Source of the DNA: an uncultured virus (IMG/VR IMGVR_UViG_3300045234_000013) | Lineage: Duplodnaviria > Heunggongvirae > Uroviricota > Caudoviricetes | Direction: 5' to 3' (one strand) | Virus record (IMG/VR): IMGVR_UViG_3300045234_000013 | Length of the DNA: 64,000 nucleotides | Shown: positions 4,911-54,263 of the stretch, one piece after another | Layout of the letters: every line of letters starts with the position of its first letter | Numbering within the stretch: position 1 is the first letter of the stretch | Notes under the pieces: model-generated | What the model was told of the DNA's origin: nothing | Database searches by the model: none | The model's input: only the letters and a program-made list of their open reading frames with translations | Translations under genes and position numbers: made by a program

Positions 4911-4922
4911 AGGAGTGAGAAA

Positions 4923-6356
4923 ATGGCAATTGTTGTAAACAGAGAAATAGCTGGAGATTTAAACAATCCAACTGCTGAACTGCTTAATTATTGCATCCAA
5001 GAGCATTTGAAAATGTTGAGACGGTTAGAAAAACTATCAGATTATTACGATGGCAAGCATGATATCACGAAACGTAAAAAAGAAAATGAAGCTGCACCTA
5101 ATAACAAAATACTTGTCAATCATGCGAAATATGTAGTTGATATGAATGTTGGTTTCATGGTTGGAAATCCTATCTCCTATGTTTCAGATGCAAACAAAAA
5201 TATCCAACCTGTATTAGATGCGTTTGACGAGTTGGATATCGTATCGCATGACACAGAACTAGAAAAAGATTTGTCTACGTTTGGTATTGCCTATGAACTG
5301 CTTTATCTTGCGAGAGGGAAAGAAGTAAATACAACCGAAATGCGTATTAAGTGTATTGATCCAAGAGGAATCTTTTTAGTTACAGATGATACCGTTGATA
5401 AGAATCCTCTATTTTCAGTGCATTACCAACCAGTGTTCGACCTACAAGGCGGAATTGATCATTATATCGTAAAGTATTATAACGACAACCGTGTTATCAC
5501 TTATAAAACACAATCGAGAGAATTCGGTGAGTATTTATTAATCGATGCAAAACAGCATTTTTTCAAAAAGGTTCCGGTTATTGAATACCGGAATAACGAG
5601 GAGAAACAAGGTGATTTTGAGCAAGCTATTTCATTAATCGATGCGTATAATCTGCTCGAATCAGATCGTCTGAATGACAAAGAAGCTTTTGTAGACGCAA
5701 TTCTATTTATCCGTGGTTTTACATTACAAGATGGAGATGGCGCGAAGTTGGCAAGCGAAAAAATGCTTCAAACAAGCGCTAAACCATCTGAGGTTGCTGC
5801 AGATTATCTAACAAAGGAACTAAACGAAGACGGGGTAAACCTTCTCAGAGAAGCGATCTTAGATGATATCCATAAGGTAACGTATGTCCCTAATATGAAC
5901 GATGAAAAATTTGCTGGAAATATTAGCGGAGAAGCAATGAAATATAAGTTATTTGGTTTATTGCAACTTATGTCAGTTAAGTCACGTTATATGATCAAGG
6001 GGTTACGACAGCGCCTGCAACTGTTCGAAAATATCCTCAAAATTAAGGATTCATCATTAGATACAACAGGTACTAAGATTAAGTTAAAACCTAATTTGCC
6101 AGTCAACACTAGCGATATTATCAATCAGATTGTAGCAGCATATAATGCGGGCATTTTACCGCTAAAAGTTTTGCTTAGCTGGTTGCCGGACATTGACGAT
6201 GTGGACGAAGTAATTGAACAACTGAATTTCGAAAAAGAGGAAAAGATCGAACTTCAGAAAAAAGCAATGGGAGTTCAAGCGCAAGATAGTAATTCAGATT
6301 TGGATGATCCGCCAGAGGAGGAAGATGATGATCAAAGCAACCTTCAAAAAGAATAA
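4923..6356 (+). CDS. Portal protein, SPP1 gp6-like
   Basis: YYDGKHDI, NHAKYVVD, GNISGEAMKYKL motifs. Confidence 0.93.
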   Translation: MAIVVNREIAGDLNNPTAELLNYCIQEHLKMLRRLEKLSDYYDGKHDITKRKKENEAAPNNKILVNHAKYVVDMNVGFMVGNPISYVSDANKNIQPVLDAFDELDIVSHDTELEKDLSTFGIAYELLYLARGKEVNTTEMRIKCIDPRGIFLVTDDTVDKNPLFSVHYQPVFDLQGGIDHYIVKYYNDNRVITYKTQSREFGEYLLIDAKQHFFKKVPVIEYRNNEEKQGDFEQAISLIDAYNLLESDRLNDKEAFVDAILFIRGFTLQDGDGAKLASEKMLQTSAKPSEVAADYLTKELNEDGVNLLREAILDDIHKVTYVPNMNDEKFAGNISGEAMKYKLFGLLQLMSVKSRYMIKGLRQRLQLFENILKIKDSSLDTTGTKIKLKPNLPVNTSDIINQIVAAYNAGILPLKVLLSWLPDIDDVDEVIEQLNFEKEEKIELQKKAMGVQAQDSNSDLDDPPEEEDDDQSNLQKE

Positions 6357-8826: not shown

Positions 8827-9867
8827 ATGGAAAAATCATTACTAAAAATAGATCTTCAATTATTTGCCGCAAAGACAAAAATTGAAGATGTCATCGTACC
8901 TGAAGTTTTTAACAAATACGTCATTGAACGTACAGCAGAATTATCTGCTTTATATCAATCTGGAATCGTTACTAAAAATCCTGAGCTCGACGCACTTGCA
9001 ACAGCTGGAGGTAAATTGATCAATATGCCATTTTGGCAAGATTTGTCTGGGGATGATGAAGTTTTATCTGACACTGATCCGCTAGATACTGATAAAATCG
9101 TTGCCAGCCAAGACGTTGCGGTTCTCTTAATGCGTGGTAAGGCTTGGAAGGCCAACGATTTGGCAAAAGCACTTTCTGGTGACGATCCAATGCGGGCTAT
9201 TGGAGATTTGGTGGCTGCTTATTGGGCCCGCCGTCAGCAAGTAACGTTACTTTCTATTTTAAAAGGAATCTATGCCGCTTCTGGAACTAAAATGACTGGT
9301 AATTCATTAGATATTTCCGCGTTAACAGGGAATGCGGCTGCGTTTACTGGGGAAACATTCTTAGATGCTTCTTACAAACTAGGAGACGCAGAAGAAAAGC
9401 TAACAGCTATTGGGGTCCATTCTTCCGTTTATGCGAATCTTCGGAAACAGAACTTAATTGAATTTTCGTTGGATTCTGAGAATAAACCTATTCCAACTTA
9501 CATGGGTAAACGAGTAATCGTAGATGATGGCATGCCTGTGGACGGAGATGTATTTACGTCTTATATCTTTGGACAAGGTGCCATTGGTTTAGGAAATGGC
9601 GCTGCACCAGTTCCAACTGAAACTGATCGTGTCGCATTGGCAGGAGATGATATTCTAATCAACCGTCAACATTTTATTCTTCACCCTCGTGGAGTGAAAT
9701 TTAAAAATAGTTCTGTTGCAGGATCTTCACCAACAAATGCTGAATTAGGAACAGGAGCAAACTGGGAACGTGTTTATGAACCTAAAAATGTTCGAATTGT
9801 CCAATTTAAACATAAACTTTATGTTCCTAATGTTACCGTACCTGGTGGAGGCGGAAGCGGCGAATAA
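8827..9867 (+). CDS. Major capsid protein
   Basis: TKIEDVIVPEVF, NMPFWQDL, HPRGVKF; size and position. Confidence 0.9.
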   Translation: MEKSLLKIDLQLFAAKTKIEDVIVPEVFNKYVIERTAELSALYQSGIVTKNPELDALATAGGKLINMPFWQDLSGDDEVLSDTDPLDTDKIVASQDVAVLLMRGKAWKANDLAKALSGDDPMRAIGDLVAAYWARRQQVTLLSILKGIYAASGTKMTGNSLDISALTGNAAAFTGETFLDASYKLGDAEEKLTAIGVHSSVYANLRKQNLIEFSLDSENKPIPTYMGKRVIVDDGMPVDGDVFTSYIFGQGAIGLGNGAAPVPTETDRVALAGDDILINRQHFILHPRGVKFKNSSVAGSSPTNAELGTGANWERVYEPKNVRIVQFKHKLYVPNVTVPGGGGSGE

Positions 9868-11467: not shown

Positions 11468-11908
11468 ATGAAGAAAACAATTTTACCGTTAAACTTACAA
11501 TTATTTGCCGGGTTGTTGACTAAGGATACAAAGCTTTCAATGAAGCAAGGAACAGGTGAAAGCGCAACTTTCAAAGAAATCGAAGGTTTGCAGGCAGTGC
11601 CTGAAATTGGAGGGGATCCAGAACAAGTCGATGTTACGACATTAAAAGATGCTAATAAGAAGTATATTTCGGGGATTCAAGATATGGATTCGCTAGAGTT
11701 CACTTTCTTATATGACAAAACCGTATTCTCTGGATTGAAAGCTGTTCAAACCTCTGGAAAAGAAGCGCAATTTGAATTGGAGTACCCAGACGGAGCGGTC
11801 TGCACATTTACTGGCGGCGTGACTGTGAAAATGGGATCAGGTGAAGTAAACGGAGCCTATCAATTTACCCTGTCTGTTACAGTTTCAGATGGTCCGGACT
11901 GGGCGTAA
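11468..11908 (+). CDS. Major tail tube protein
   Basis: VPEIGGDPEQVDVTTL...YISGIQD motif; N-terminal NLQLFA. Confidence 0.9.
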   Translation: MKKTILPLNLQLFAGLLTKDTKLSMKQGTGESATFKEIEGLQAVPEIGGDPEQVDVTTLKDANKKYISGIQDMDSLEFTFLYDKTVFSGLKAVQTSGKEAQFELEYPDGAVCTFTGGVTVKMGSGEVNGAYQFTLSVTVSDGPDWA

Positions 11909-17535: not shown

Positions 17536-20181
17536 GTGAGAAGAATGCTGACAGTAACAAGTGAGTTTTTTGAAGCCTGCAAAGACAAAGAACGTGAAGT
17601 TCTCACTCGTGTAATTATTAATAACAAAACAATTTACCTTAAAGATAGTATCAAGAAGATTGATTATTCAATGGGGGCTTTAGGAGGGGAAAGCTTCCAG
17701 ATTGGTTCAACACAATCTGCGACACTAAAGATTGTTTTCTCGGAAATCATTGAGAATTTTAAGGAACTCGATGAAATTAAAGTTGAAATCGGGTTTAAAA
17801 TACGAGGAACGGGGCTACCTTCTAATATAAATAATGTTTCGAAGGTAAATAGAGCACGCGTTGGAAGAGCCAGGTTAGTCAGCTATGTTGCTGATAGATA
17901 TGAGTTTGTACCGCTAGGGACGTTCTACGTTTCAGGTCGAGTTGATCCAGACAGAAACGAGAAAACTACTACAGTTGAAGCAAGAGATGGCTTTATCTTC
18001 ATGGAGTCAACATACGAATCTAACCTGAACTTTCCTGCAAAACTAAGCGACGTAGCATTAGAGATAGCAAATAAAAGTGGAGCCGTTATCGATCCAATAT
18101 CATTTAATCATTTGAGTAATTACTCCATTAATAATCCGACAGGATACACGTTTAGACAGGCAATAGGATTAATCGGGCAATTTGAAGGTGGTTTTGCTTG
18201 TTTTGATAGAGAAGGTAAGCTAGCTATTCGAACACTATCAGATCCGAACTTCAAAATAGATCCTAACGAATATTTTTTGAAAGGTCTTACTAAAAACGAG
18301 TTACTTTATCAGCCAAGAGGATTGTCTTGTAAAGTTGTAAATCCGACAGAAGGATCAAGTAACGAAACGACAATTCTGCAGTCTGGATCAAAAAACGGTT
18401 CGCAGATTTCTCTCGAAAATAATGTCATGACCCAAACTTTATTGGATGATATTTTCCAGAAAATAAGATACATCAATTTTTTCCCAATTAATGTGAAATG
18501 GAGAGGGAACCCCGCTATTGAGGTAGGCGATTGGGTCACCCTGACAGATAGAGAAGGAAAAAATTTCAAGTCTCCTGTTTTGAATTACTCAATGACGTTC
18601 GATGGTGGTTTTAGTTCCGTGATAAGCGCAGACTCGAAAGCTTATTCATCCAATGTGTCATCTTTCAAAGGTCCGCTTCAACAGAAACTTGATGATGTGG
18701 ATTATAGAATTGATGCAGCGGGTAAAAATAATGTGTATGAAGGGACAGAAGAACCTCTAAATCCCAAAGAAGGCGATATTTGGTTTAAAAAGAATGGACC
18801 CGATGATGAAATTTGGGTTTACAAACAAACATCTCCAGGAGTCTTTGAGTGGGTAATGACAACTTCTACAGCTCTCGAAGAAAGTATTAAGAAGCAAATT
18901 GAAGATAGTACTCCTAAGGACGAAATCGTCAAGACCATTAATCTCAGTACAGAAATGGACGGCAAAGAGTGGCTGAAAATAAAAGGCGCTAAGTTATGGT
19001 TAACGAACGAGACGAAGATTGACAAAGCTATAATCACTTCAGCAATGATTGGATCAGTTGATGCCGGAACTATTAGTGTTGGAACACTAGATGCTGCAAA
19101 AATCAGAGTCATTAATTTAGATGCTTCTTCCATCTCTACAGGAATTCTCGATGCCTCAAAAATCAGAGTGAAAAATTTGAATGCATCTGAAATTACCGCC
19201 GGCACTTTAAAAGCTATCGATATTCAAGGGGTCACGATAACTGGTAGCAAAATAGTGACTGATGGTTCGCAATTTAGAATGACTCAGGATAATGGGAAAT
19301 TAACTTGGTTCTCTAAAGAGTACAATAAAGAGTTTATGTCGTTAGAACCCAGCAAATTCGACGGCGCTGATGTTGGTATTTTGAAATATAAAATGGGAAT
19401 CGGCGGAGGGTTTCAATTAAGAGATAGTAAAGATAACTATGTTATTAGTTCTTATGATAATGGTGCCAAAAATCAAACTTGGTTGTCATTTAGTTCGGAT
19501 AGTCTTTTTTGGAGTAATAGAGCGTTTGTCCCAGATGCAAACTATAGTTATATTAATGCTTCAGGAGTTTCTATAGTTATACAAGCTAATAGCTATTCCT
19601 ACAGTTTTGCAAATGGGAATATAACAACCTCTCAAATTAAATTAATGGGCTATCAAACGTCGATAATTAATAGCGGACTGAGAGTTTATGATGGATTGAG
19701 TGTTTCTGGCACTAAAAATTCGCTAGTTAATACCCAAAGTTATGGGGAACGACTTTTAAACGCGTATGAGACTCCAGAATACCTATTCGCCACATATGGG
19801 AAAGTGACAACTGATAGCAATGGACATGGGCAAGTAATTATAGAAGAAAAATTTTTAGAGACAATCAATACTAAGTCTGATAATTATCATGTTTTTCTTT
19901 CACCTTATGAGAACTCTATTGTTTACGCGGAAAACCTAAGAGGAGATTCCTTTTCAGTTAAGTCTGACAGACCCTATGTAACAATGAGTTATCAACTAGT
20001 CGCTTATCGTTTAGGGTATGAAGATTTCTATTTAGAAACTCCTAGATCCAATAAAGAAAAACATCCCAATTTACCAACTAAGATACTTTCCTCGGAAGAG
20101 GCGACAGAAACTATATCACCAATCATTCCGTACCCGGAAGATGATAGTGATCAGCTAAAATCATATTTAGATAATAAATAG
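17536..20181 (+). CDS. Tail tip / host-specificity protein
   Basis: 881 aa; RGNPAIEVGD, ITAGTL repeats, GTKNSLV...YETPE C-terminal domain. Confidence 0.85.
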   Translation: MRRMLTVTSEFFEACKDKEREVLTRVIINNKTIYLKDSIKKIDYSMGALGGESFQIGSTQSATLKIVFSEIIENFKELDEIKVEIGFKIRGTGLPSNINNVSKVNRARVGRARLVSYVADRYEFVPLGTFYVSGRVDPDRNEKTTTVEARDGFIFMESTYESNLNFPAKLSDVALEIANKSGAVIDPISFNHLSNYSINNPTGYTFRQAIGLIGQFEGGFACFDREGKLAIRTLSDPNFKIDPNEYFLKGLTKNELLYQPRGLSCKVVNPTEGSSNETTILQSGSKNGSQISLENNVMTQTLLDDIFQKIRYINFFPINVKWRGNPAIEVGDWVTLTDREGKNFKSPVLNYSMTFDGGFSSVISADSKAYSSNVSSFKGPLQQKLDDVDYRIDAAGKNNVYEGTEEPLNPKEGDIWFKKNGPDDEIWVYKQTSPGVFEWVMTTSTALEESIKKQIEDSTPKDEIVKTINLSTEMDGKEWLKIKGAKLWLTNETKIDKAIITSAMIGSVDAGTISVGTLDAAKIRVINLDASSISTGILDASKIRVKNLNASEITAGTLKAIDIQGVTITGSKIVTDGSQFRMTQDNGKLTWFSKEYNKEFMSLEPSKFDGADVGILKYKMGIGGGFQLRDSKDNYVISSYDNGAKNQTWLSFSSDSLFWSNRAFVPDANYSYINASGVSIVIQANSYSYSFANGNITTSQIKLMGYQTSIINSGLRVYDGLSVSGTKNSLVNTQSYGERLLNAYETPEYLFATYGKVTTDSNGHGQVIIEEKFLETINTKSDNYHVFLSPYENSIVYAENLRGDSFSVKSDRPYVTMSYQLVAYRLGYEDFYLETPRSNKEKHPNLPTKILSSEEATETISPIIPYPEDDSDQLKSYLDNK

Positions 20182-22337: not shown

Positions 22338-23381
22338 ATGCAATTAATGTCAGGTATTGCAGGCAGCCGTGGAAGAAATCCCTATGGAGTGGTTATCCAC
22401 AATGATGCAGCTTCCCAAGGTGCTACTACTACTTTTTATAGAAATTGGTTGCCAAGTCATAATGCAGAGCTGGGTTTCGCCCATTGGTATGTTTGTAGTG
22501 ACGGTATCTTACAAGTTGAGAATGAAGCAAATATGGCATGGCATACAGCGAATGCAAATGGGAATGCGAATTATATAGGGATTGAAGCTTGTCAATCTAT
22601 GGGAAATCTAGACACGTTCAGAAATAATGAAGATCGTTCAGTAAAACTAGCTGCTGAAATTTTAAAACGCTATGGACTACAACCGAATAGAAATACGGTA
22701 ATCTTGCACAAACAATTCTCAGCCACCGCCTGTCCGCATAGATCGGTATCGGTGCATGGAGATTGGACGATCATGCAAGATTATTTTATTGCTCAAATTC
22801 AAAAATACATGAATGGTTCTACACCAAATCCTGCACCTAAGCCTCAACCAACCGGAAACAAAAACGGCATTGCGATCGATAATATCACCAAAGATCAGGC
22901 GGTAAAAATGGTTCAGCGTATTCAAACAAAGTATGCCTGGACACTTTTACGCGATCAAGTGAAACGTGTGTTGCAACCGAACAAAGTCTATACGCTGGTT
23001 ATCACTTGTGATTCAAAATGGAAGTATGAGAATGCGGTCAACCGGTTGAAGCAAGAGCTTAAAACCTACTATCCAGGCTACATGCAGCAAAACATTGCGA
23101 TCGTTGATGGAGACAAACCTATAATCAAGATCGAGGCACGGAATTTGAATGATGAGCAAAGCAAGAAGATGGAAGGCCACATGCGCAATTTCTTGAAAGA
23201 CATCTTACTAGACGGTCAAACATACGCAGAAGCGAATTCTTACGGAACGTACGATGTTCGTATCAAAGGCGAAGGCTTCAATGATCATGATGCGCCTATT
23301 GTATTGAAGGAAATTCAAGAGATGGGTAAAGCGAAGGATGTTGGAATTAATCCAGCACATATTAAAGGATTTAAGTATTAG
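22338..23381 (+). CDS. Endolysin, N-acetylmuramoyl-L-alanine amidase (Amidase_2)
   Basis: VVIHND, AHWYV, AWHTA, IGIE, H...SATACP Zn-binding motifs; Pro-rich linker. Confidence 0.92.
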   Translation: MQLMSGIAGSRGRNPYGVVIHNDAASQGATTTFYRNWLPSHNAELGFAHWYVCSDGILQVENEANMAWHTANANGNANYIGIEACQSMGNLDTFRNNEDRSVKLAAEILKRYGLQPNRNTVILHKQFSATACPHRSVSVHGDWTIMQDYFIAQIQKYMNGSTPNPAPKPQPTGNKNGIAIDNITKDQAVKMVQRIQTKYAWTLLRDQVKRVLQPNKVYTLVITCDSKWKYENAVNRLKQELKTYYPGYMQQNIAIVDGDKPIIKIEARNLNDEQSKKMEGHMRNFLKDILLDGQTYAEANSYGTYDVRIKGEGFNDHDAPIVLKEIQEMGKAKDVGINPAHIKGFKY

Positions 23382-26708: not shown

Positions 26709-27845
26709 CTACTTACCCTTAGCATTGAGTTTTTCAACAATACTAGCCTTTGTCTTCTTGGTTACATGGGTGTATATCTTCATTGTTGTTTCCATGTCGG
26801 AGTGTCCTACACGTTCCATGATTGCTTTTACAGGTATGTTCAATTCAGCAAGTAGCGAGATGTGAGAGTGTCTAAAAATATGGCTAGACATTTTCTTTTT
26901 GATAGCATCTTTACCAAGCTTGTCATTCATAGTCTTTAGCGAGTTATTAAATGCATTGATTTGAATCGGCTTGCCAGTCTTACCAATAAAGAGATAAGGA
27001 GTTTTACCCTTGAATTTTAACTTATTCTCCAAAATCAATTCGTCGATTATTTCAATCGCTCGATTAGATAGATCAATTTCACGATATGATGCTAGGGTCT
27101 TAGGCATCTCTTTTTTTGCATTTTTATAGCCGTCCGAATAATCTAAAGTACCAATAACCTTTATAGTTTGGCTATTCGGATTGTAATCATCAATTGTGAG
27201 GCTTATAGCTTCGCCTGCACGCAGTCCAGTTAAATACATGAACTCAGCTAACCTTCCGTGATGGACGCTCTGAAACGTGCTGTAATAGACGTTCAATAGC
27301 TTGTTGATTTCTTCTTCTTCTAAATACTTATCTTCCACTCTTTCATAAGTTTCTTTTGTTAAAGCTGGTTTAGGAACTTTCGCCCTGTTAATAGGATTAA
27401 TTTTGATCATTTCCATATCCACTGCATAATCAAGCGCCATTTTTAGCACACTTCGAAACTTCTTCTTATATTCGTAAGATTGAGGTAACTCATTTATGAA
27501 ATCTTGATAAAATCTTGTGTCTGTATTTCGCACCACCGCAGCAGTGTTAATATTCTTTCGTATGTATTTCAAAAGTTTTTCATAATTAACTTGTGATGAT
27601 TGGCGAATAGAAACCTTATGCTGATTCCACCACGCATCTAATAGCTCGCCAAGTGTAATCTTGATTTGATTTTTTTCTTCGATCTTCTTATCAATTTTTT
27701 CTTGAAGTTCTATGTTTGCTTGCTTCTTAGCTTGATTAGATTTGCTGTTAAGTGTGATGGAAACTTTTCTGCTTTTTTCTGTGTATGGGTCAATGTATCG
27801 TTCAGAATATTTGTATTTCCCGTTCGGTAATTCTTCGATCCACAT
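26709..27845 (-). CDS. int: Tyrosine integrase
   Basis: TGLRAGE, HIFRHSH, RVGH, IYTH catalytic motifs. Confidence 0.96.
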   Translation of the reverse strand: MWIEELPNGKYKYSERYIDPYTEKSRKVSITLNSKSNQAKKQANIELQEKIDKKIEEKNQIKITLGELLDAWWNQHKVSIRQSSQVNYEKLLKYIRKNINTAAVVRNTDTRFYQDFINELPQSYEYKKKFRSVLKMALDYAVDMEMIKINPINRAKVPKPALTKETYERVEDKYLEEEEINKLLNVYYSTFQSVHHGRLAEFMYLTGLRAGEAISLTIDDYNPNSQTIKVIGTLDYSDGYKNAKKEMPKTLASYREIDLSNRAIEIIDELILENKLKFKGKTPYLFIGKTGKPIQINAFNNSLKTMNDKLGKDAIKKKMSSHIFRHSHISLLAELNIPVKAIMERVGHSDMETTMKIYTHVTKKTKASIVEKLNAKGK

Positions 27846-28549: not shown

Positions 28550-29209
28550 TTAATATTTTCTTTTATTAGGATTAGCCATATCCCACACAACTTTTCCTTC
28601 TATGCAAACCTCACTAAGCGTAATTGGGTCATCTATCATCCATGGTTTGAAACCATCATCATAAGAATCAGGCTGTAGCACTAAGAGATTTTTCCCGCAT
28701 ATAACTCTTTTTACAGTCGTCTCATCTCCGTTTATTCTGACTGCATAAACTAAACCGGATTCGATCTCTGCATCAGGATCAATTACTAATAATTGTCCGT
28801 CTGGAAATAACCTATTCATCGATTCACCCGATGTTTCGAGAAGATAGCCATTTGGATAATTTTCCTTAATCTCTGCGGGCACTTGGATTTCTTCGGGATT
28901 TGAGTAGGTGACTAAAGGTTTGCCCGCAACTATGGTTCCTATTAAAGGCATGGTTTCTCTAGAACCTATCAACCTAGGTTTAACAACTCCTGGTAAAGAA
29001 TAGTAATCAATACTGTACAGGTTTGATAGTTTAATCAAAATTGAATCTGGAAATGGCAGTTTCCCATTTTCGTATTTAGATAGTGTAGCATTATTAAGCC
29101 CCAATTTAGGAGCTATTTCCAGTTGGCTTAACTTCTTTTCTTTTCTTGCTTGTTTCATTATTGCTGCAACTTTTAATTGATCTTCATTTAATTTATCTGT
29201 CGCCATCAA
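28550..29209 (-). CDS. cI-like repressor (HTH + S24 peptidase)
   Basis: XRE HTH, AG cleavage site (IVAG), GESM serine and TVKR lysine. Confidence 0.93.
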   Translation of the reverse strand: MMATDKLNEDQLKVAAIMKQARKEKKLSQLEIAPKLGLNNATLSKYENGKLPFPDSILIKLSNLYSIDYYSLPGVVKPRLIGSRETMPLIGTIVAGKPLVTYSNPEEIQVPAEIKENYPNGYLLETSGESMNRLFPDGQLLVIDPDAEIESGLVYAVRINGDETTVKRVICGKNLLVLQPDSYDDGFKPWMIDDPITLSEVCIEGKVVWDMANPNKRKY

Positions 29210-49989: not shown

Positions 49990-51105
49990 ATGACTATGAA
50001 ACTATCAAACGAATTCAAAACAATTCGTGACAACTTCTTAGCTGCTGTTAATAATAACGAGCCAGCTGAAAAACAAAATGAACTATACGGTGCAATGCTC
50101 GATGAATTGCTGAACGAAGCAAAAAAACAAGCGCGTGCTGAGGCAGAAGGATTAATTGCTGAAAATCCGGCAGATGCGAAATTATCTGCTCGTGAGCGTA
50201 AATTTTTTAATGCTATCAGCACGGACGTCGGTTATAAAGAAGAAAAATTGTTGCCGCAAGAAACCATTGATCGAATCTTTGAGAACTTAACTACTGCCCA
50301 TTCACTATTAGCTGAAATCGGTTTAGTAAACGCAGGGCTACGATTGAAATTCTTGAAATCTGAAACAAGTGGTGTTGCTGTATGGGGAAAAATCTTCGGC
50401 GAGATCAAAGGTCAGTTAGATGCAGCGTTCAGTGAAGAAGAAGCAATTCAAAGCAAATTGACGGCGTTTGTAGTTGTTCCTAAGGATTTGAAAGACTTCG
50501 GACCAGCTTGGATTGAATCATTTGTGGCTACTCAAATTGATGAAGCTTTTGCAGTGGCTTTAGAGGCTGCTTTTTTATCAGGAGATGGAAATGACAAGCC
50601 GATTGGTTTAAATCGTCAAGTTCAAGAAGGTGTAGCCATTACTGGTGGTGTTTATCCAGAAAAAACTTCAATGGGCGATTTAACATTTGCTGATTCAGCA
50701 ACGACCGTTAAAGAACTAACGAATGTTTACAAACATCATTCAACTGACGAAAAAGGTCATGCAGTTGCTGTAGATGGAAAAGTTGTCATGGTAGTTAATC
50801 CTAGTGATGCTTGGGATGTCAAACGTCAATATACTTCATTAAATGCGCAAGGAGTATATGTAACTGCGTTACCTTACAATTTGAAAATTGTTGAATCATT
50901 AGCGCAAGCAACTGAAAAAGTTTTAACGTTCGTAAACGGCCGATACGATGCATATATTGGCGGGGGCATTACTTTACGTAAATACGATCAAACATTAGCG
51001 ATTGAAGACATGGATTTATACACTGCTAAACAGTTTGCTTATGGGAAAGCTAAAGATGATAAGGCTGCTGCAGTTTGGGGATTAAAAGTATCCGAGGGAA
51101 AATAG
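49990..51105 (+). CDS. Major capsid protein, HK97 family; -1 frameshift form extends to 51167
   Basis: GDGNDKPIGL; slippery G GGA AAA (51096-51102) directly before TAG. Confidence 0.93.
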   Translation: MTMKLSNEFKTIRDNFLAAVNNNEPAEKQNELYGAMLDELLNEAKKQARAEAEGLIAENPADAKLSARERKFFNAISTDVGYKEEKLLPQETIDRIFENLTTAHSLLAEIGLVNAGLRLKFLKSETSGVAVWGKIFGEIKGQLDAAFSEEEAIQSKLTAFVVVPKDLKDFGPAWIESFVATQIDEAFAVALEAAFLSGDGNDKPIGLNRQVQEGVAITGGVYPEKTSMGDLTFADSATTVKELTNVYKHHSTDEKGHAVAVDGKVVMVVNPSDAWDVKRQYTSLNAQGVYVTALPYNLKIVESLAQATEKVLTFVNGRYDAYIGGGITLRKYDQTLAIEDMDLYTAKQFAYGKAKDDKAAAVWGLKVSEGK

Positions 51106-51182
51106 AGGCCCCCGCAGTTATTAATGTTGAACCGACAAGTGACGGAGCAACAATTGCACTGCGATAGAAAGGGGCGTTTCTA

Positions 51183-51485
51183 TTGGATGAGAAATTGCTA
51201 AAAGATTTCAAATCGCGGATGAGAATCTTTCATACTGCTGACGATGAAAACTTAGAAAATATTTTGAAAAGTTCAAAAGTAGCTGTTAAGCGATGGTGTG
51301 GGACTGACAATGTTTCAAATCCTGAAATTCGCGAACTCGTGATTGAACGCAGCCGATATGTCTACAATGATTCGTTAGAATTTTTCAATGATAACTTTCA
51401 ATCGGAATTAATGGCTGTCTCTTTAGCAAATTATGAAGAGGGAGCTGATGGCGAAGATGAAGTACCAGAAACCCAAAGTCAATAA
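51183..51485 (+). CDS. Head-tail connector
   Basis: FKSRMRIFH..DD, ERSRYVYND. Confidence 0.85.
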   Translation: MDEKLLKDFKSRMRIFHTADDENLENILKSSKVAVKRWCGTDNVSNPEIRELVIERSRYVYNDSLEFFNDNFQSELMAVSLANYEEGADGEDEVPETQSQ

Positions 51486-51822
51486 CGGCGCTATGAGAAC
51501 ACCTGTTGAATTTTTTCAATATCGACCTCATAAAGGCCCTGAGCCAGGCGAGCAAGAGAAGCAGACCATTTTTAATTGTTTCGCTGAGATTTATAACCCC
51601 TCAATGAAAGACTTGGAAATTTTGAACTCAAAGACGACTAAACAAGCAGTAACTCTCACGATTAGAGATCCGCAAACTGACTACATTGTTTCAAACAAGC
51701 ATTATGTAGAGGTTATGGATAGGAGATATTCAGGCATTCGTTGGAACATCGTTGACGTTCGAAATGATTTCACTGACAACCGATTCATCACGATTTTGTT
51801 AGCGGTGTATGACGATGAATAA
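51448..51822 (+). CDS. Head closure protein
   Basis: Synteny; MRTPVEF...TIRDP. Confidence 0.8.
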   Translation: MAKMKYQKPKVNNGAMRTPVEFFQYRPHKGPEPGEQEKQTIFNCFAEIYNPSMKDLEILNSKTTKQAVTLTIRDPQTDYIVSNKHYVEVMDRRYSGIRWNIVDVRNDFTDNRFITILLAVYDDE

Positions 51823-52219
51823 TGTTGATTTTAAAGGTGTAAATGAAACGCTACGTGAGATGGAAAAACGTTTAGGGTCCACTAAAACACGAAAAATTGC
51901 TCGTGAAGCGGTTGACGAAGGGGCTTCTGATGTTGAGGAACAAATGAAATGGGCAATGATGTCTTTTAAAGACACTGGCGCTACTATCGATGAAGTCGTC
52001 AAAAAGAAAGCAACGTACCGCAATGAAAACACCGAAGCTGAAATTGGCTGGAACGGTCCAAAACAGCGGTATCGAATTATCCATTTGAACGAGTGGGGAT
52101 ACACCAGAAATGGTCGTCAAATAAAGCCGCGTGGATTTGGAGTAATAACAAAATCACTGAAATCATCTGAAAAAATTTACTTTAATACAGTAGCTAGGGA
52201 GTTGAGGAATAAGTTATGA
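51809..52219 (+). CDS. HK97 gp10-like neck protein
   Basis: DTGAT, IHLNEWG. Confidence 0.8.
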   Translation: MTMNNVDFKGVNETLREMEKRLGSTKTRKIAREAVDEGASDVEEQMKWAMMSFKDTGATIDEVVKKKATYRNENTEAEIGWNGPKQRYRIIHLNEWGYTRNGRQIKPRGFGVITKSLKSSEKIYFNTVARELRNKL

Positions 52220-52626
52220 AAGATATGTTGATGACAATTTATGAGGCACTATGCTCAAACTCTTATATCCACGATATGACTTACAACTCTGATTCAGAAG
52301 AGTACAGGATTAAGTTTTACGAGCAACCTGAAACGGCTGACAAAACAGGTGCGTTTATCACAATTCGACCTGCAGATGTACCGAACGAAGCATTCCACGG
52401 GAGCGATAAAGAGCTTTCTATCGAACACCTGATACAAATTGATGTGGAGTCAAAATACAGAGCGACATGCAAACAAATGCAGTATGAAATTAAAAAAGAG
52501 ATGAAGAAGCTTGGTTTTGGCCAAGTGAGCGGCCAAGGTTTAGACGAATATTTCTCGGAGACTAGACGTTATGTAGACGCTCGACGATATGACGGGAATA
52601 CACGAATTTACGATACACAATATTAA
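52216..52626 (+). CDS. Tail terminator
   Basis: Synteny; QIDVES...RYVDARRY. Confidence 0.75.
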   Translation: MKDMLMTIYEALCSNSYIHDMTYNSDSEEYRIKFYEQPETADKTGAFITIRPADVPNEAFHGSDKELSIEHLIQIDVESKYRATCKQMQYEIKKEMKKLGFGQVSGQGLDEYFSETRRYVDARRYDGNTRIYDTQY

Positions 52627-52698
52627 AACAGAATAACAGGAATTAAGACACGAAAACTCGTGTCTTTTTTTGTTGTCAAAATTAGGAGGAAATAAATT

Positions 52699-53283
52699 AT
52701 GACTTTAGTCGGATTTAAAAAAATGACAATCGGAATTTTTGATAAGGACGGTAAAATTCCAACAGCTAATCAATTTGTTATTGAAGGTAAACAAGATAAA
52801 GGGGCCACTGTATCCGCTGAAATTAGCGGCCTATCAAAAGAAGCTACAAAGGTATATGGATCAAATATTGCTTACTATATCTCGCAAAAAGGAACAGGGG
52901 ACATTTCTGCAACGTTTGGATTGTTAGATTTGCCAGAAGATCTAAATGACAAGATTCTTGGTTACAAAACTGATGCAAACAAGATCAGCTTTCTTGGCGA
53001 AGACACGGAGCCGCCATATTGCGCATTGCTTATGGAGTCAGAAGATCTCGGTGGGGATACAGCTATGTTGACAATCTTTAAAGGTAAGTTTAGTCGTGAA
53101 GCTATCAATTTGAATACTACAACAAATGAAGCCTTTGAACCTGAAGCAGAGGAGTATGTATTTTCTGCAATTGCCAATGATGCTGATGGCGATGCAAAGG
53201 GGCAATCGGTTGCTAAATATGTTGGAGATGAAGAGGCGTCAATTACAGCAATGCGCACAATGGCTTTTCCAGCGGGGGAGTAA
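52699..53283 (+). CDS. Major tail protein (phi13 family); -1 frameshift form extends to 53345
   Basis: VGFKK, KVYGSN, EPPYCA; G GGG GAG directly before TAA. Confidence 0.92.
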   Translation: MTLVGFKKMTIGIFDKDGKIPTANQFVIEGKQDKGATVSAEISGLSKEATKVYGSNIAYYISQKGTGDISATFGLLDLPEDLNDKILGYKTDANKISFLGEDTEPPYCALLMESEDLGGDTAMLTIFKGKFSREAINLNTTTNEAFEPEAEEYVFSAIANDADGDAKGQSVAKYVGDEEASITAMRTMAFPAGE

Positions 53284-53355
53284 CAAGCCCAGTCGTTGGG
53301 ACAGTTACCCCGACGACGACAGGGGCAACAATCGCATTAAGTTAGGAGAATGAGT

Positions 53356-53697
53356 GTGGTAGATACATTTAGAATTTATAAAAAAGATGGAACAAAAGTA
53401 GTGGAGGGCACAAGCCCTCTTTCTATCACTGGTATTGCAGCAAATACACAAGTAGCAAAGGGAGACTATCAAGCAACTCGGTTGGTTAATGATGTTGAAT
53501 CAATGAAAGTTGATATCCCAGCATTTAAGACATTGCCCGAACAAGAGCCGGAAACACCTAGCTTTGATCCTGAAGGAGATGTAAAGCCAACAAATGCGAA
53601 TACCGTTGAAGAAATAAAAGCATGGTTGACAGCACATGGTATTGATTACACCGGAAAGACACTTAAATCAGATTTGCTTGCATTAGTACCAGCGTAG
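53356..53697 (+). CDS. Truncated FN3/Ig-like tail accessory protein with a C-terminal HeH-like domain
   Basis: RBS AGGAG 7 nt before GTG 53356; FRIY...ITGIAANT...YQA...ES.KVDIPAFKT; TVEEIKAWLTAHGIDY...KSDLLALV. Confidence 0.75.
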   Translation: MVDTFRIYKKDGTKVVEGTSPLSITGIAANTQVAKGDYQATRLVNDVESMKVDIPAFKTLPEQEPETPSFDPEGDVKPTNANTVEEIKAWLTAHGIDYTGKTLKSDLLALVPA

Positions 53698-53757: not shown

Positions 53758-54069
53758 ATGGCACAAGTTCGAATTGAATTAAAAAATAAAAAAGGCAAAA
53801 AAGAAGTCTTTGAGAAATTAGAAACAACCGGGAAAGACTATCGTTTAGCTTTGCAAACAATTAAAAAATTAAATGCAGAAAAAATCATGCTGTGGGATCA
53901 GTTAGATATTTATTTAGCTTTTGCAGTGGAAATTTTCAAAGCAGACAAATTGACTACAGATCAGATTTTGGAAGGATTACCTTCTGAAAAAACTCGGGAA
54001 ACTTTGGATGATTTATTAGGGCAAGTAATGGGAATTGAAGATAATCCTGATCCAGATGCAAAAAAGTAA
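53758..54069 (+). CDS. Tail assembly chaperone G; -1 frameshift form GT ends at 54248
   Basis: Canonical A AAA AAG (54060-54066) before TAA; the -1 frame is open for ~60 codons. Confidence 0.88.
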   Translation: MAQVRIELKNKKGKKEVFEKLETTGKDYRLALQTIKKLNAEKIMLWDQLDIYLAFAVEIFKADKLTTDQILEGLPSEKTRETLDDLLGQVMGIEDNPDPDAKK

Positions 54070-54263
54070 CTCCGGAAGAGGCCGAAGAAATGTATCTGGA
54101 ATTGTGCCGAGAATTAACTAAACAGGGATGGTCTCTCTCTGATATTGAAAATAATTCTTTTGACACGTTAATTGAAATTGCTTGTGTAAGACCGAAAAAA
54201 GAAAAATCAAAAGAAGTCGACCTAAAAGACTTCGTCAAATCTATTTAGGAAAGGAGGAAAATT

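What the first reader, a model, noticed from the sequence alone, without database searches (positions are those of the whole stretch)
51096..53697. Capsid and tail tube get the same frameshift-encoded peptide tag, which may complete a split FN3 domain
Seen: the capsid gene ends G GGA AAA TAG. The -1 frame adds IEAPAVINVEPTSDGATIALR (stop 51167), and a long stem (GCCCC-CGCAGT...ACTGCG...GGGGC) begins 5 nt downstream. The tail tube gene ends G GGG GAG TAA. Its -1 frame adds VTSPVVGTVTPTTTGATIALS (stop 53345), followed by a CCCA/TGGG hairpin whose GTCGT loop could pair with a downstream ACGAC. The two hidden peptides are homologous (P.V..V.PT..GATIAL) and are missing from the ORF track. The next ORF (53356-53697) has its own RBS and looks like FN3 strands C-G without strands A-B, followed by a HeH-like domain. 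Known: frameshifts that append whole Ig-like domains to capsid or tail proteins are described in siphophages. Inference: here only the first two beta-strands are appended, and the rest of the domain docks in trans by strand complementation. One decoration protein could then be displayed on both head and tail at a frameshift-set stoichiometry, like a natural tag/catcher pair.
Basis: partly seen in the sequence, partly recalled or inferred. Interest (0 to 1): 0.8.

Follow-up and report, generated by a model that had tools for sequence, protein, structure and literature searches.

The report
Frameshift tags dock split-FN3 decoration protein
In this Enterococcus-type prophage, ribosomal frameshifting very probably adds the same 21-residue, two-strand peptide to some head and tail-tube subunits, and the next gene makes a small protein that starts with the other five strands of that fibronectin-type domain, so one surface protein can plug into both head and tail.

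Summary
The capsid gene (49990-51105) ends G_GGA_AAA_TAG and the tail-tube gene (52699-53283) ends G_GGG_GAG_TAA. Their -1 frames encode homologous 21-residue peptides.

- **Conservation:** 86 of 93 related loci carry such a tag just upstream of a homologue of ORF 53356. 64 of 78 loci with enough flank carry two tags, one behind a capsid-sized ORF and one behind a tail-tube-sized ORF. Tags sit behind -1 or +1 (CCC-stop) recoding sites.
- **Coding signal:** codon differences are 53-58% synonymous in the tag frame and 4-18% in the other frames.
- **Co-occurrence:** among 72 loci picked by capsid homology, no locus has a tag without the partner gene, and 40 lack all three parts.
- **Fold:** the partner's first ~60 residues align to strands C-G of FN3 domains.
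- **Docking:** a complex model scores 0.72 against 0.02 for the best control.
- **Precedent:** a Tuc2009 crystal structure shows the same hairpin-completes-domain principle.
- **Virion data in relatives:** published Staphylococcus phage mass spectra contain the partner protein and an unassigned 25,208 Da peak. The predicted tagged tail tube weighs 25,205 Da.

Binding in this phage is still untested. Four earlier notes of this scan report the same idea on other genomes.

The parts
49990..51105 (+). Major capsid protein gene (371 aa, zero frame)
   Evidence: Pfam Phage_capsid PF05065, E 3.9e-12. Preceded by portal and ClpP-type protease genes.
51096..51102 (+). Capsid -1 slippery heptamer G_GGA_AAA, directly followed by the zero-frame stop TAG at 51103-51105
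   Evidence: Sequence read. The same or equivalent heptamers (G_GGA_AAR, A_AAA_AAG, C_CCA_AAA) occur at the capsid ends of related loci.
51102..51167 (+). Capsid tag in the -1 frame: IEAPAVINVEPTSDGATIALR plus stop (51165-51167). Proposed FN3 strands A-B.
   Evidence: Translation. Tag profile score 26.4 bits. Conserved at capsid ends of relatives.
51104..51179 (+). Stem-loop downstream of the capsid slippery site. It spans the whole tag-coding stretch.
   Evidence: RNA fold -28.2 kcal/mol, z -4.4, 0 of 200 shuffles as good. In related -1 capsid sites, 18 of 30 have z at or below -2.
52699..53283 (+). Tail tube protein gene (194 aa, zero frame)
   Evidence: Pfam Phage_TTP_1 PF04630, E 1.1e-17.
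53274..53280 (+). Tail-tube shift site G_GGG_GAG (run of five G), followed by the zero-frame stop TAA at 53281-53283
   Evidence: Sequence read. GCG GGG GAG TAA, or GGG AAG / GGA AAG variants, are conserved at tail-tube ends of the Enterococcus-group loci. Not a canonical heptamer.
53280..53345 (+). Tail-tube tag in the -1 frame: VTSPVVGTVTPTTTGATIALS plus stop (53343-53345). Proposed FN3 strands A-B.
   Evidence: Translation. Tag profile score 34.0 bits. Modelled docking into the next protein.
53287..53326 (+). Hairpin downstream of the tail-tube shift site
   Evidence: RNA fold -22.5 kcal/mol, z -1.6, 14 of 200 shuffles as good. Weak on its own.
53344..53348 (+). Shine-Dalgarno AGGAG of the accessory gene. 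It overlaps the tag's stop codon.
   Evidence: Sequence read. It lies 7 nt before GTG 53356. The 10-nt gap between tag stop and gene start is shared by the Enterococcus-group loci.
53356..53541 (+). Accessory protein residues 1-62: the 'catcher' module, FN3 strands C-G without A-B
   Evidence: AF2 pLDDT above 90. Aligns to the C-terminal two thirds of FN3 domains, Z 5-7. 127 of 150 family representatives carry it at their N-terminus.
53542..53697 (+). Accessory protein residues 63-113: acidic linker plus a two-helix HeH-like cargo domain (residues 83-111), and the stop codon
   Evidence: Pfam HeH, E 3e-4, 20.9 bits, below the 28.9 cut-off. Helices at 84-93 and 104-109. Relatives replace this part with Big_2, G5, fn3, He_PIG or nothing.

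Best explanation
This is a split FN3-like domain used as a non-covalent plug and socket to decorate the virion.

1. A fraction of ribosomes slip -1 at the last codons of the capsid gene (G_GGA_AAA before TAG) and of the tail-tube gene (G_GGG_GAG before TAA). They add a 21-residue peptide that corresponds to beta-strands A and B of an FN3 domain.
2. The gene after the tail-tube tag (53356-53697) is translated from its own ribosome-binding site. Its product begins at residue 1 with strands C-G of the same domain, followed by a linker and a small HeH-like cargo domain.
3. The tag hairpin inserts into the open face of the five-strand module. Strand B pairs with E, and the A region lies along G. 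This completes the sandwich and tethers the accessory protein to those head and tail subunits that carry the tag.

What is shown: the sequences, their conservation, the coding signal in the shifted frames, the co-occurrence of the three parts, and the fold assignment of the five-strand module.

What is shown in relatives only: the accessory protein and a mass that fits the tagged tail tube are present in virions.

What is inferred: frameshifting in this prophage, docking of both tags, occupancy set by shift efficiency, and possible coupling of accessory-gene translation to termination at the tag stop 10 nt upstream.
For: **1. Tags are conserved and coding.**
- 86 of 93 loci chosen for a homologue of the accessory module have a tag (10 bits or more) ending within 70 nt upstream of it. 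58 lie behind a tail-tube-sized ORF, 27 behind a capsid-sized ORF, and 1 has its upstream ORF cut.
- 64 of 78 loci with enough flank have two tags behind long ORFs.
- Of the ORFs before tags that were tested, 13 of 17 large ones hit Pfam capsid families and 9 of 15 small ones hit Phage_TTP_1.
- The tag profile gives 165 hits of 10 bits or more on the gene strand and 5 on the reverse strand.
- Codon differences are synonymous in 420 of 730 (tail) and 156 of 292 (capsid) cases in the tag frame, against 4-18% in the other frames.

**2. Recoding sites are of known kinds.**
- 24 of 26 distinct +1 contexts are CCC followed by a stop. This is the Listeria phage tsh site named in PMC5009743 (passages).
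- The -1 contexts are G_GGA_AAR, A_AAA_AAG, C_CCA_AAA, G_GGG_RAG or TCA_AAA, each before a stop.

**3. The parts co-occur.** Of 72 loci picked by capsid homology, 40 have none of the three parts, 22 have all three, 10 have the catcher with one tag or with tags below threshold, and 0 have a tag without the catcher. The 7 loci below threshold show divergent tags by eye.

**4. The domain is split.**
- The catcher model aligns to residues ~30-40 onwards of single FN3 domains, for example 7jgt 31-92 of 92 and 8oty 36-103 of 102, at Z 5-7.
- Relatives P0069, P0070, P0096, P0105 and P0110 carry a tag-like segment, a loop and the module in one frame.

**5. The tag also occurs in frame.** It is in frame on the phiEf11 tail tube, and on Kayvirus Sb-1 orf141 and orf142, each followed by a gene that starts with the catcher.

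**6. The complex model supports docking.**
- ipSAE was 0.72, 0.72 and 0.77. The best of 3 controls was 0.02.
- That mark was reached by 116 of 157 solved complexes and 2 of 215 mismatched pairs.
- The runs share at least 97% of contacts, and the partner's pLDDT is at least 77.
- The 7 out-of-frame lead residues of the peptide make no contacts.

**7. There is a solved precedent.** In Tuc2009, a 25-residue C-terminal hairpin of BppU 'completes one of the beta-sheets' of BppA domain 2, and the composite resembles a titin FN3 domain (PMC4742702, passages). BppA 229-286 is the best structural match of the catcher: Z 7.1, rmsd 2.3 over 57 residues, 28% identity.

**8. Virion data exist for relatives.**
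- PMC5923470 (passages and Tables 3-4) lists the 15,871 Da 'Ig-like domain' protein of phage 47 in virions. This is the catcher-Big_2 protein; my calculated mass is 15,871.
- The same paper lists a shared Triavirus peak at m/z 25,208. The +1 tagged tail tube is predicted at 25,205 Da.
- None of 179 start-stop combinations in the phage 47 genome comes within 15 Da of 25,208.
- phiEf11 virions show two capsid bands about 3 kDa apart from one gene, and the authors proposed a 21-residue -1 extension (PMC5221750, section 4 part 1).
Against: - No experiment exists on this prophage. Frameshifting, its efficiency and binding are all inferred.
- The tail-tube site is not a canonical heptamer, and its downstream hairpin is not better than shuffles (z -1.6).
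- The capsid tag was not modelled with the catcher, because only one complex job was allowed.
- AF2 predicts the catcher alone with pLDDT 91, so the models do not show that it needs the tag to fold.
- Foldseek gave no PDB match at E 0.001 or better (best 0.083). The VIA Z-scores of 5-7 are in the range the tool calls common.
- The catcher profile did not find BppA by sequence (12 sequences at E up to 1, best 5.1e-4 to fibronectin).
- Pfam fn3 does not hit the catcher.
- In phiEf11, mass spectrometry did not find peptides of the extension (PMC5221750).
- 7 of 32 catcher-positive loci in the capsid-based set had no tag at the 10-bit threshold, and one (L134) seems to lack a tail tag altogether.
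- Only 6 of 85 internal modules in family representatives are preceded by a segment that scores 8 bits or more with my tag profile.
- The 25,208 Da assignment is my own reading of a published peak list, not the authors'.
- Related loci are not phylogenetically independent.
Confidence: 0.8

Rival explanations
1. The tags are translated but act on their own, for example as assembly or stabilising tails. The accessory protein binds the virion by some other surface, and the FN3-half likeness is only historical.
For: AF2 folds the catcher alone with high confidence. No binding experiment exists. L134 appears to have a catcher behind a tail tube that has no tag.
Against: - No tag occurs without a catcher: 0 of 25 tag-bearing loci, and 40 of 40 catcher-free loci lack tags.
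- Capsids 93-96% identical to this one lack the tag together with the catcher (L105, L111-L113, L115-L117; L110 and L137 have no capsid tag but keep the tail tag and catcher).
- The complex model places the tag as strands A-B, far above the controls.
- Tuc2009 supplies a structural precedent.
Confidence: 0.08
2. The tail-tube ribosome shifts twice, or hops over the stop and ribosome-binding site. The tag and ORF 53356 are then made as one contiguous FN3 domain fused to the tail tube, as in classical frameshift-appended Ig domains.
For: In the window, the last tag codon AGT (53340-53342) recurs as AGT at 53353-53355, in the accessory frame just before GTG. A hop between them would join the halves seamlessly. 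In-frame complete domains exist in relatives.
Against: - The frame of the tag relative to the accessory ORF is 0, +1 or +2 in different loci, and the gap ranges from 1 to 61 nt.
- The AGT repeat is absent in close relatives such as L026-L029.
- The accessory gene has its own AGGAG and start codon.
- In every two-tag locus, one of the two tags (here the capsid tag) has no catcher gene behind it.
- In 27 loci the catcher follows the capsid instead of the tail tube.
- In Triavirus and Kayvirus virions, the catcher proteins are seen at their free monomer masses.
Confidence: 0.03
3. The short shifted frames are not translated. Their conservation reflects RNA structure (terminators or frameshift-like hairpins) or chance.
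For: The tag-coding stretch of the capsid gene is itself a strong hairpin. phiEf11 mass spectrometry did not detect extension peptides.
Against: - The synonymous-biased substitution pattern is specific to the tag frame.
- The peptide motif is kept across -1 and +1 lineages whose DNA is unrelated.
- The tag is in frame in annotated virion proteins: the phiEf11 tail tube and Kayvirus orf141 and orf142.
- The 25,208 Da peak fits the tagged tail tube.
Confidence: 0.02
4. The tags are decaying remnants of once complete frameshift-appended Ig/FN3 extensions. The accessory gene is the severed remainder, kept for an unrelated role.
For: Complete in-frame versions of the domain exist. Frameshift-appended whole domains are known in related phages (PMC5009743).
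Against: - The split sits at the same loop (B-C) in hundreds of diverged loci from at least six genera named in the loci and records.
- Both halves are under purifying selection.
- 127 of 150 family representatives start exactly with strand C.
- Capsid and tail tags end at the homologous position.
Confidence: 0.05

Closest known systems
Programmed frameshift extensions of both capsid and tail-tube proteins: Listeria phages PSA, A118 and A500; Lactobacillus phage A2; Bacillus phage SPP1 gp17.1*; T3/T7 gene 10B
   Same: Recoding occurs at the 3' end of the major capsid and major tail genes and gives a minority C-terminally extended, surface-exposed form. Relatives of this system use the very site CCC+stop that is described for the Listeria tsh genes (PMC5009743 passages).
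   Different: Those extensions are described as whole Ig-like domains. SPP1 gains 9.1 kDa, as quoted in PMC5221750. The A2 figure of about 85 residues is recalled, not from a call. Here only 21 residues (two strands) are added, and the remaining five strands come from a separate gene.
Tuc2009 baseplate tripod: BppU C-terminal hairpin plus BppA domain 2 (PDB 5E7T)
   Same: A 25-residue C-terminal beta-hairpin of one virion protein completes a sheet of a ~57-residue five-strand sandwich in another protein, and the composite resembles a titin FN3 domain (PMC4742702 passages). BppA 229-286 is the best structural match of the catcher: Z 7.1, 28% identity.
   Different: The pair is a baseplate pair, not on the capsid or tail tube. 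The hairpin is in frame, with no recoding. The five-strand module is at the C-terminus of BppA, not the N-terminus. No sequence-profile match was found. It was not described as a portable system.
Enterococcus phage phiEf11 ORF10 (proposed 21-residue -1 extension of the head protein)
   Same: It is the same tag at the same place. Two head bands about 3 kDa apart arise from one gene, with an AAAAAAA site, a downstream stem-loop and a 21-residue extension (PMC5221750). phiEf11 also has the catcher gene, ORF16.
   Different: The authors did not link the extension to the tail tube or to ORF16. I find that the phiEf11 tail tube carries the tag in frame. Their mass spectrometry did not detect the extension.
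Donor-strand complementation in chaperone-usher pili, and SpyTag/SpyCatcher (both recalled, not from a call)
   Same: An incomplete Ig-like fold is completed by a strand or strands from another chain. A short tag and a larger catcher derive from one domain.
   Different: Pilins lack the C-terminal G strand and receive one N-terminal strand. SpyCatcher forms an isopeptide bond. Here two N-terminal strands are donated from a C-terminal tail, and homologous proteins appear in virions at monomer mass, so no covalent bond is indicated.

Membership tests
FN3 (fibronectin type III) fold | Seven-strand sandwich: sheet A-B-E packed on sheet C-C'-F-G | tested here: inconclusive
   Catcher residues 1-63 align to the C-terminal two thirds of many FN3 domains (Z 5.0-5.8, rmsd 2.2-2.8, 55-61 residues). 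In the complex model, the tag pairs with the E and G strands. Z below 8 is in the tool's 'common arrangement' range, and Foldseek's best E-value is 0.083.
FN3 (fibronectin type III) fold | Sequence-profile match to fn3 families | tested here: inconclusive
   Pfam fn3 gives no hit on the accessory protein at E up to 0.01. The catcher profile hits fibronectin FN3 repeats at E 5.1e-4 over the ItGLxpgTeY region.
Programmed -1 ribosomal frameshift cassette | Slippery heptamer X_XXY_YYZ in the zero frame | tested here: met
   The capsid site G_GGA_AAA (51096-51102) meets it. The tail site G_GGG_GAG does not fit the canonical form, but it is conserved and interchanges with G_GGA_AAG in relatives.
Programmed -1 ribosomal frameshift cassette | Stimulatory RNA structure 5-9 nt downstream | tested here: met
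   The capsid site has a stem-loop starting 5 nt after the heptamer (z -4.4). The tail site is inconclusive (z -1.6). Across relatives, 40 of 70 distinct -1 sites have z at or below -2.
Programmed -1 ribosomal frameshift cassette | Conserved, selected coding sequence in the shifted frame | tested here: met
   The synonymous fraction is 0.53-0.58 in the tag frame and 0.04-0.18 elsewhere. The motif is conserved in 86 of 93 loci.
Programmed -1 ribosomal frameshift cassette | Detection of the trans-frame product | not testable with these tools
   Only relatives give evidence: the phiEf11 double capsid band and the Triavirus 25,208 Da peak against the predicted 25,205 Da.
Frameshift-appended whole Ig-like domain (A2, PSA, SPP1 type) | The extension encodes a complete Ig-like or FN3 domain | tested here: not met
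   The extensions are 21 residues and end at a stop. That is only about two strands.
Trans-completed composite FN3 (Tuc2009 BppU-BppA type) | A C-terminal hairpin of one protein completes a five-strand module of another | tested here: met
   Met at the level of the model only: complex score 0.72 against 0.02, with B-E and A-G contacts. Best structural match is BppA domain 2. Homology by sequence is not shown.
HeH/LEM domain (cargo part) | Pfam PF12949 above its gathering score; helix-extension-helix | tested here: inconclusive
   20.9 bits against a cut-off of 28.9. Two helices are modelled. Relatives P0130 and P0136 pass the cut-off at 29.0 and 29.4 bits.
Covalent tag/catcher (SpyCatcher-like isopeptide) | Covalent bond between tag and catcher | tested here: not met
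   There is no conserved Asp or Asn in the tags. In Triavirus and Kayvirus virions, the catcher and tag-bearing proteins appear at monomer masses. This was tested on relatives only.

The most novel reading that the evidence does not exclude
This is one copy of a widespread, portable plug-and-socket system of phages of Gram-positive bacteria.

- Any virion protein can acquire the ~21-residue A-B tag, either in frame or through -1 or +1 recoding that doses it.
- Any cargo (Big_2, G5, fn3, HeH, or none) can acquire the C-G socket at its N-terminus.
- Proteins that carry both a socket and a tag form ordered chains. Examples are the Kayvirus orf141-orf142-orf143 trio and the 89-residue socket+tag proteins of L008, L013 and L014.
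- Such chains would grow head-to-tail on heads and tails by a donor-strand-like mechanism.
- Socket synthesis may be coupled to termination of the ribosomes that made the tag.
Probability: 0.45. Interest if true: 0.9.

Novelty: new variant of a known kind. Interest (0 to 1): 0.8.

Why it matters
It would explain a common but unannotated feature of Enterococcus, Staphylococcus, Listeria-like and lactobacillus phage genomes: short hidden peptides after the capsid and tail-tube genes, and small 'major tail protein' or 'Ig-like' genes next to them.

It gives a simple rule for how one decoration protein is placed on two unrelated lattices at a dose set by recoding.

It also points to a natural, small, non-covalent tag and socket pair. 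This pair could be used to display cargo on phage heads and tails without altering most subunits.

Finally, it makes annotated virion proteomes easier to read. One example is the unassigned 25,208 Da peak in Staphylococcus Triavirus spectra.

Tried and rejected
- **Pseudoknot at the tail site.** The minimum-energy fold is a single extended hairpin and is not significant. I dropped the pseudoknot as a needed element.
- **Ribosome hop from AGT to AGT across the stop.** Rejected, because the repeat is absent in close relatives and frames and gaps vary.
- **Isopeptide (SpyCatcher-like) bond.** Rejected, see the membership test.
- **Foldseek against the PDB.** No match at E 0.001 or better.
- **Catcher profile against PDB sequences.** BppA was not found.
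- **Tag profile on internal repeats of long family members.** Only 6 of 85 modules have an upstream segment of 8 bits or more. The profile is too narrow for those divergent repeats. I read the complete-domain state by eye in 5 proteins only.
- **Listeria phage B025.** It is the closest named capsid relative by DNA and has neither tags nor catcher. It serves as a negative example.
- **Brochothrix phage NF5 cryo-EM paper** (PMC12917162, passages). It mentions no frameshift and no decoration, so it does not bear on this.
- **PMC13370021** (passages). Unrelated engineered display.
- **Bxb1 tail-tip entry 9d93** (second structural match, N-terminal residues 4-73). Its paper was not found in the library, so I could not check whether that domain is also completed in trans.
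- **Searches for a prior description**. They found only the Tuc2009 and phiEf11 papers.

Full report
**Setting.** The window holds two tandem prophages.
- The first lies at about 1-25 kb. It has an SPP1-type portal, a Gp13-like capsid, a Phage_tail_3 tube and an amidase, and it has no tags.
- An integrase (26709-27845, minus strand) and a CI-like repressor (28550-29209, minus strand) open the second prophage.
- The structural module of the second prophage runs from the terminase (46452) through the portal, a ClpP-type protease, the capsid (49990-51105), four head-tail genes, the tail tube (52699-53283), the ORF at 53356-53697, a tail chaperone (Phage_TAC_19) and a 2076-residue tape measure.
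- The nearest relatives of the accessory protein are Enterococcus sequences.

**The observation.** Both hidden peptides are present as described.
- Capsid: GAG GGA AAA TAG. After a -1 slip on G_GGA_AAA, the frame reads IEAPAVINVEPTSDGATIALR and stops at 51165-51167.
- Tail tube: GCG GGG GAG TAA. After a -1 slip on the run of five G, the frame reads VTSPVVGTVTPTTTGATIALS and stops at 53343-53345.
- A profile built from related tags finds exactly these two places in the 64-kb window, on either strand, at 10 bits or more (34.0 and 26.4 bits; next best 6.2).
- The capsid site has a strong hairpin 5 nt downstream that spans the whole tag-coding stretch (-28.2 kcal/mol, z -4.4, 0 of 200 shuffles as good).
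- The tail hairpin is weaker (z -1.6, 14 of 200), and the minimum-energy fold needs no pseudoknot.

**The accessory protein.**
- A homology search returned 62 proteins at E 0.001 or better among 65 candidates.
- Their alignment shows that the first ~60 residues (M..TFKIYKKDGTKVVEG.SPL.ITGIAANTQVAKGDYQA.RV...ES.KVDIPAFKTLP) are conserved and start at residue 1.
- The rest varies: HeH-like as here, Big_2, He_PIG, or nothing.
- A profile of this module finds 454 clusters at E 0.001 or better in a 1.84-billion-protein library.
- Of the best 150, 127 carry the module at the N-terminus, 20 carry it only internally, and 3 were not re-detected by my local profile.
- I scanned 81 of the 132 representatives of 420 residues or fewer against Pfam, leaving out the shortest. 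44 have Big_2, 7 fn3, 3 G5, 2 HeH, 2 Big_15, 1 He_PIG and 24 nothing. No Pfam model covers the module itself.

**Tags in relatives.** I fetched 13 genome loci and 80 viral loci (the best 80 of 110) that encode the module.
- 86 of 93 loci have a tag (10 bits or more) ending within 70 nt upstream of the module. 58 lie behind a tail-tube-sized ORF, 27 behind a capsid-sized ORF, and 1 has its upstream ORF cut.
- 7 loci have none at that threshold. One of these is cut short, one has the tag in frame on a preceding Big_2 protein, and four show divergent tag-like peptides by eye.
- Of 78 loci with enough flank, 64 have two tags behind long ORFs.
- Pfam confirmed capsid families for 13 of 17 large ORFs tested and Phage_TTP_1 for 9 of 15 small ORFs tested.
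- So the accessory gene sits behind the tail-tube tag, as here, or behind the capsid tag, and in both layouts the other structural gene usually carries a tag too.
- The tag frame relative to the accessory ORF is 0, +1 or +2, and the gap is 1-61 nt. This excludes a fixed translational fusion.
- The profile gives 165 hits of 10 bits or more on the gene strand and 5 on the reverse strand.
- Codon differences between close pairs are synonymous in 58% (tail) and 53% (capsid) of cases in the tag frame, against 4-18% in the other two frames.

**Recoding sites.**
- In the +1 lineages, 24 of 26 distinct contexts are CCC followed by a stop. This is the site reported for the tsh genes of Listeria phages PSA, A118 and A500 (PMC5009743, passages). 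phiSLT and phage 47 use CCC_AGC.
- In the -1 lineages, the sites are G_GGA_AAR, A_AAA_AAG, C_CCA_AAA, G_GGG_RAG or TCA_AAA. Nearly all lie directly before the zero-frame stop.
- Downstream structure is more common at -1 sites. The median z is -2.2 for capsid sites and -2.1 for tail sites, and 40 of 70 sites have z at or below -2. At +1 sites the median z is -1.5 and -1.2 (60 mononucleotide shuffles each).

**Co-occurrence.** I fetched 80 further loci by capsid homology alone (57-100% identity). 72 had at least 3500 nt downstream.

| Capsid tag | Tail tag | Catcher | Loci |
|---|---|---|---|
| no | no | no | 40 |
| yes | yes | yes | 22 |
| no | yes | yes | 2 |
| yes | no | yes | 1 |
| below threshold | below threshold | yes | 7 |
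| any tag | any tag | no | 0 |

- By eye, the 7 below-threshold loci have divergent tags. One of them, L134, seems to have only a capsid tag.
- Capsids 93-96% identical to this one occur without any of the three parts (L105, L111-L113, L115-L117). L110 and L137 have no capsid tag but keep the tail tag and catcher. The parts are therefore gained and lost together.
- These loci are related to one another, so the counts are not independent events.

**Is it a split FN3 domain?**
- AF2 models the accessory protein at pLDDT 91.1 with five strands in residues 1-60.
- Foldseek finds nothing at E 0.001 or better, though most weak hits are FN3 domains.
- VIA-align gives 20 chains at Z 5 or more and none at Z 8 or more. 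Residues 1-63 align to the last two thirds of single FN3 domains, for example 7jgt 31-92 of 92, 1x5x 38-104 of 109 and 8oty 36-103 of 102. That is the part after strands A and B.
- Several family members carry the whole domain in one frame. In P0069, P0070, P0096, P0105 and P0110, a tag-like segment (for example PPEVESVVPTDTTATITM) is followed by a 6-10-residue loop and then the module.
- The split therefore lies in the B-C loop.

**Docking model.** I modelled the catcher (39-row alignment) with the 30-residue -1 frame peptide.
- ipSAE was 0.72, 0.72 and 0.77. The best of 3 controls was 0.02.
- That mark was reached by 116 of 157 solved complexes and 2 of 215 mismatched pairs.
- At least 97% of contacts are shared between runs, and the partner's pLDDT is at least 77.
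- Tag residues 24-27 (strand B) pair with catcher residues 21-24 (E). Tag residues 18-22 lie on catcher residues 57-60 (G).
- The seven out-of-frame lead residues make no contacts.
- A like complex has been solved (next paragraph), so part of this pass may reflect likeness to it.

**Solved precedent.** The best structural match is BppA residues 229-286 of the Tuc2009 tripod (5e7t_B; Z 7.1, rmsd 2.3 over 57 residues, 28% identity). [quoted passage not shown] The principle is thus experimentally established in one baseplate pair. The catcher profile does not detect BppA by sequence.

**Experimental traces in relatives.**
1. **phiEf11.** Two prominent head bands (38-39 and 41-43 kDa) both derive from ORF10. 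The authors proposed a -1 shift on AAAAAAA that adds 21 residues, but their mass spectrometry did not find the extension (PMC5221750, passages and section 4 part 1). I find that the phiEf11 tail tube ORF15 carries the tag in frame (...VDSPSVESVTPTFDGASTELS) and that ORF16 is catcher plus Big_2.
2. **Staphylococcus Triavirus phages 3A, 42E and 47.** Intact-virion MALDI lists the 'Ig-like domain' protein among the most frequently detected proteins (15,871 Da for phage 47). It also lists shared peaks at 23,295, 25,208 and 30,373 (PMC5923470, passages and Tables 3-4). The word 'frameshift' does not occur in that paper.
   - My masses for phage 47 are: tail tube without Met 23,295, catcher-Big_2 protein without Met 15,871, and +1 tagged tail tube without Met 25,205.
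   - None of 179 start-stop combinations of 120-320 residues in the phage 47 genome falls within 15 Da of 25,208.
   - The 30,373 peak fits the capsid from residue 114 (30,375), but also an internal start of ORF014 (30,369), so I leave it open.
3. **Kayviruses.** The three adjacent proteins are all seen in virions at monomer mass: tag-bearing orf141, catcher-Big_2-tag orf142 and catcher orf143 of Sb-1. The masses are 23,069, 17,718-17,745 and 7,818. This argues for virion association and against a covalent bond.

**Spread.** tblastn of the module finds 311 phage records with the window's sequence as query and 536 with a Staphylococcus sequence as query. They include Enterococcus, Staphylococcus (sipho- and myoviruses), Brochothrix and Lactobacillus phages.

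**Prior description.** Searches of the paper library found no description of short capsid and tail-tube tags that complete a separately encoded domain. Subscription journals are not covered, and supplements were not read. Four earlier notes of this scan report the same idea on other genomes. They are unchecked AI notes and add no independent support. I had seen the Kayvirus trio before reading them.

**Verdict.** The system combines two known things: recoding-made C-terminal extensions on heads and tails, and a hairpin-completed FN3 domain. The combination is an arrangement not found described in the library searched. The function of the displayed HeH-like cargo is unknown. Binding to anionic wall polymers or DNA would fit the fold class, but that is only a guess.

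Noticed in passing
L013:6001-6270, L014:6001-6270, L008:6001-6270 (also L065 and L012:2645-2923): Some accessory proteins consist of the catcher followed, after about 5 residues, by their own in-frame tag (89 residues in all). A linker that short cannot fold back onto its own module, so these proteins could polymerise head to tail from a capsid or tail tag.
   Followed up: no
L096 (Staphylococcus phage Sb-1) 1837-3246; L081:5460-6204: In this Kayvirus gene trio, each gene boundary cuts the domain. orf141 ends with a tag, orf142 is catcher-Big_2-tag, and orf143 is a catcher. All three are found in virions at monomer mass in published MALDI data.
   Followed up: partly
L177 / L178 (Staphylococcus phage 47) 6729-7370 and downstream: The shared Triavirus MALDI peak at m/z 25,208 is unassigned in the published table. 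It matches the predicted +1 frameshift product of the tail-tube gene (25,205 Da). No ordinary ORF product of the genome comes within 15 Da.
   Followed up: yes
L105 and L110, just after the capsid gene; L001 (Listeria phage B025) 5074-5244: Close capsid relatives without a capsid tag carry a small gene at the same place instead. It resembles B025 gp6 and begins MKYTILKSFRDKYTKELYEKGQEIDL... This may be an alternative head accessory module.
   Followed up: no
window 1-25000: A second, unrelated prophage lies upstream in tandem. It has an SPP1-type portal, a Gp13-like capsid at 8827-9867, a Phage_tail_3 tube at 11468-11908 and an amidase at 22338-23381. It has no tag or catcher.
   Followed up: partly
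window 53758-54248: A tail assembly chaperone gene (Phage_TAC_19) is followed by a 52-residue ORF before the tape measure gene. This is the usual place of the conserved chaperone frameshift. I did not examine it.
   Followed up: no
PDB 9d93 chain Sb, residues 4-73: The second-best structural match of the catcher is the N-terminal ~70 residues of a 475-residue protein of the mycobacteriophage Bxb1 tail tip (Z 6.8). Whether that domain is also completed in trans could not be checked, because the paper is not in the library.
   Followed up: partly
L095 (phiEf11) 4392-4985: The phiEf11 tail-tube protein ORF15 carries the tag in frame, so every tube subunit should be tagged. The tube belongs to a different Pfam family (PF06199, per the record's note) from the window's tube.
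   Followed up: partly
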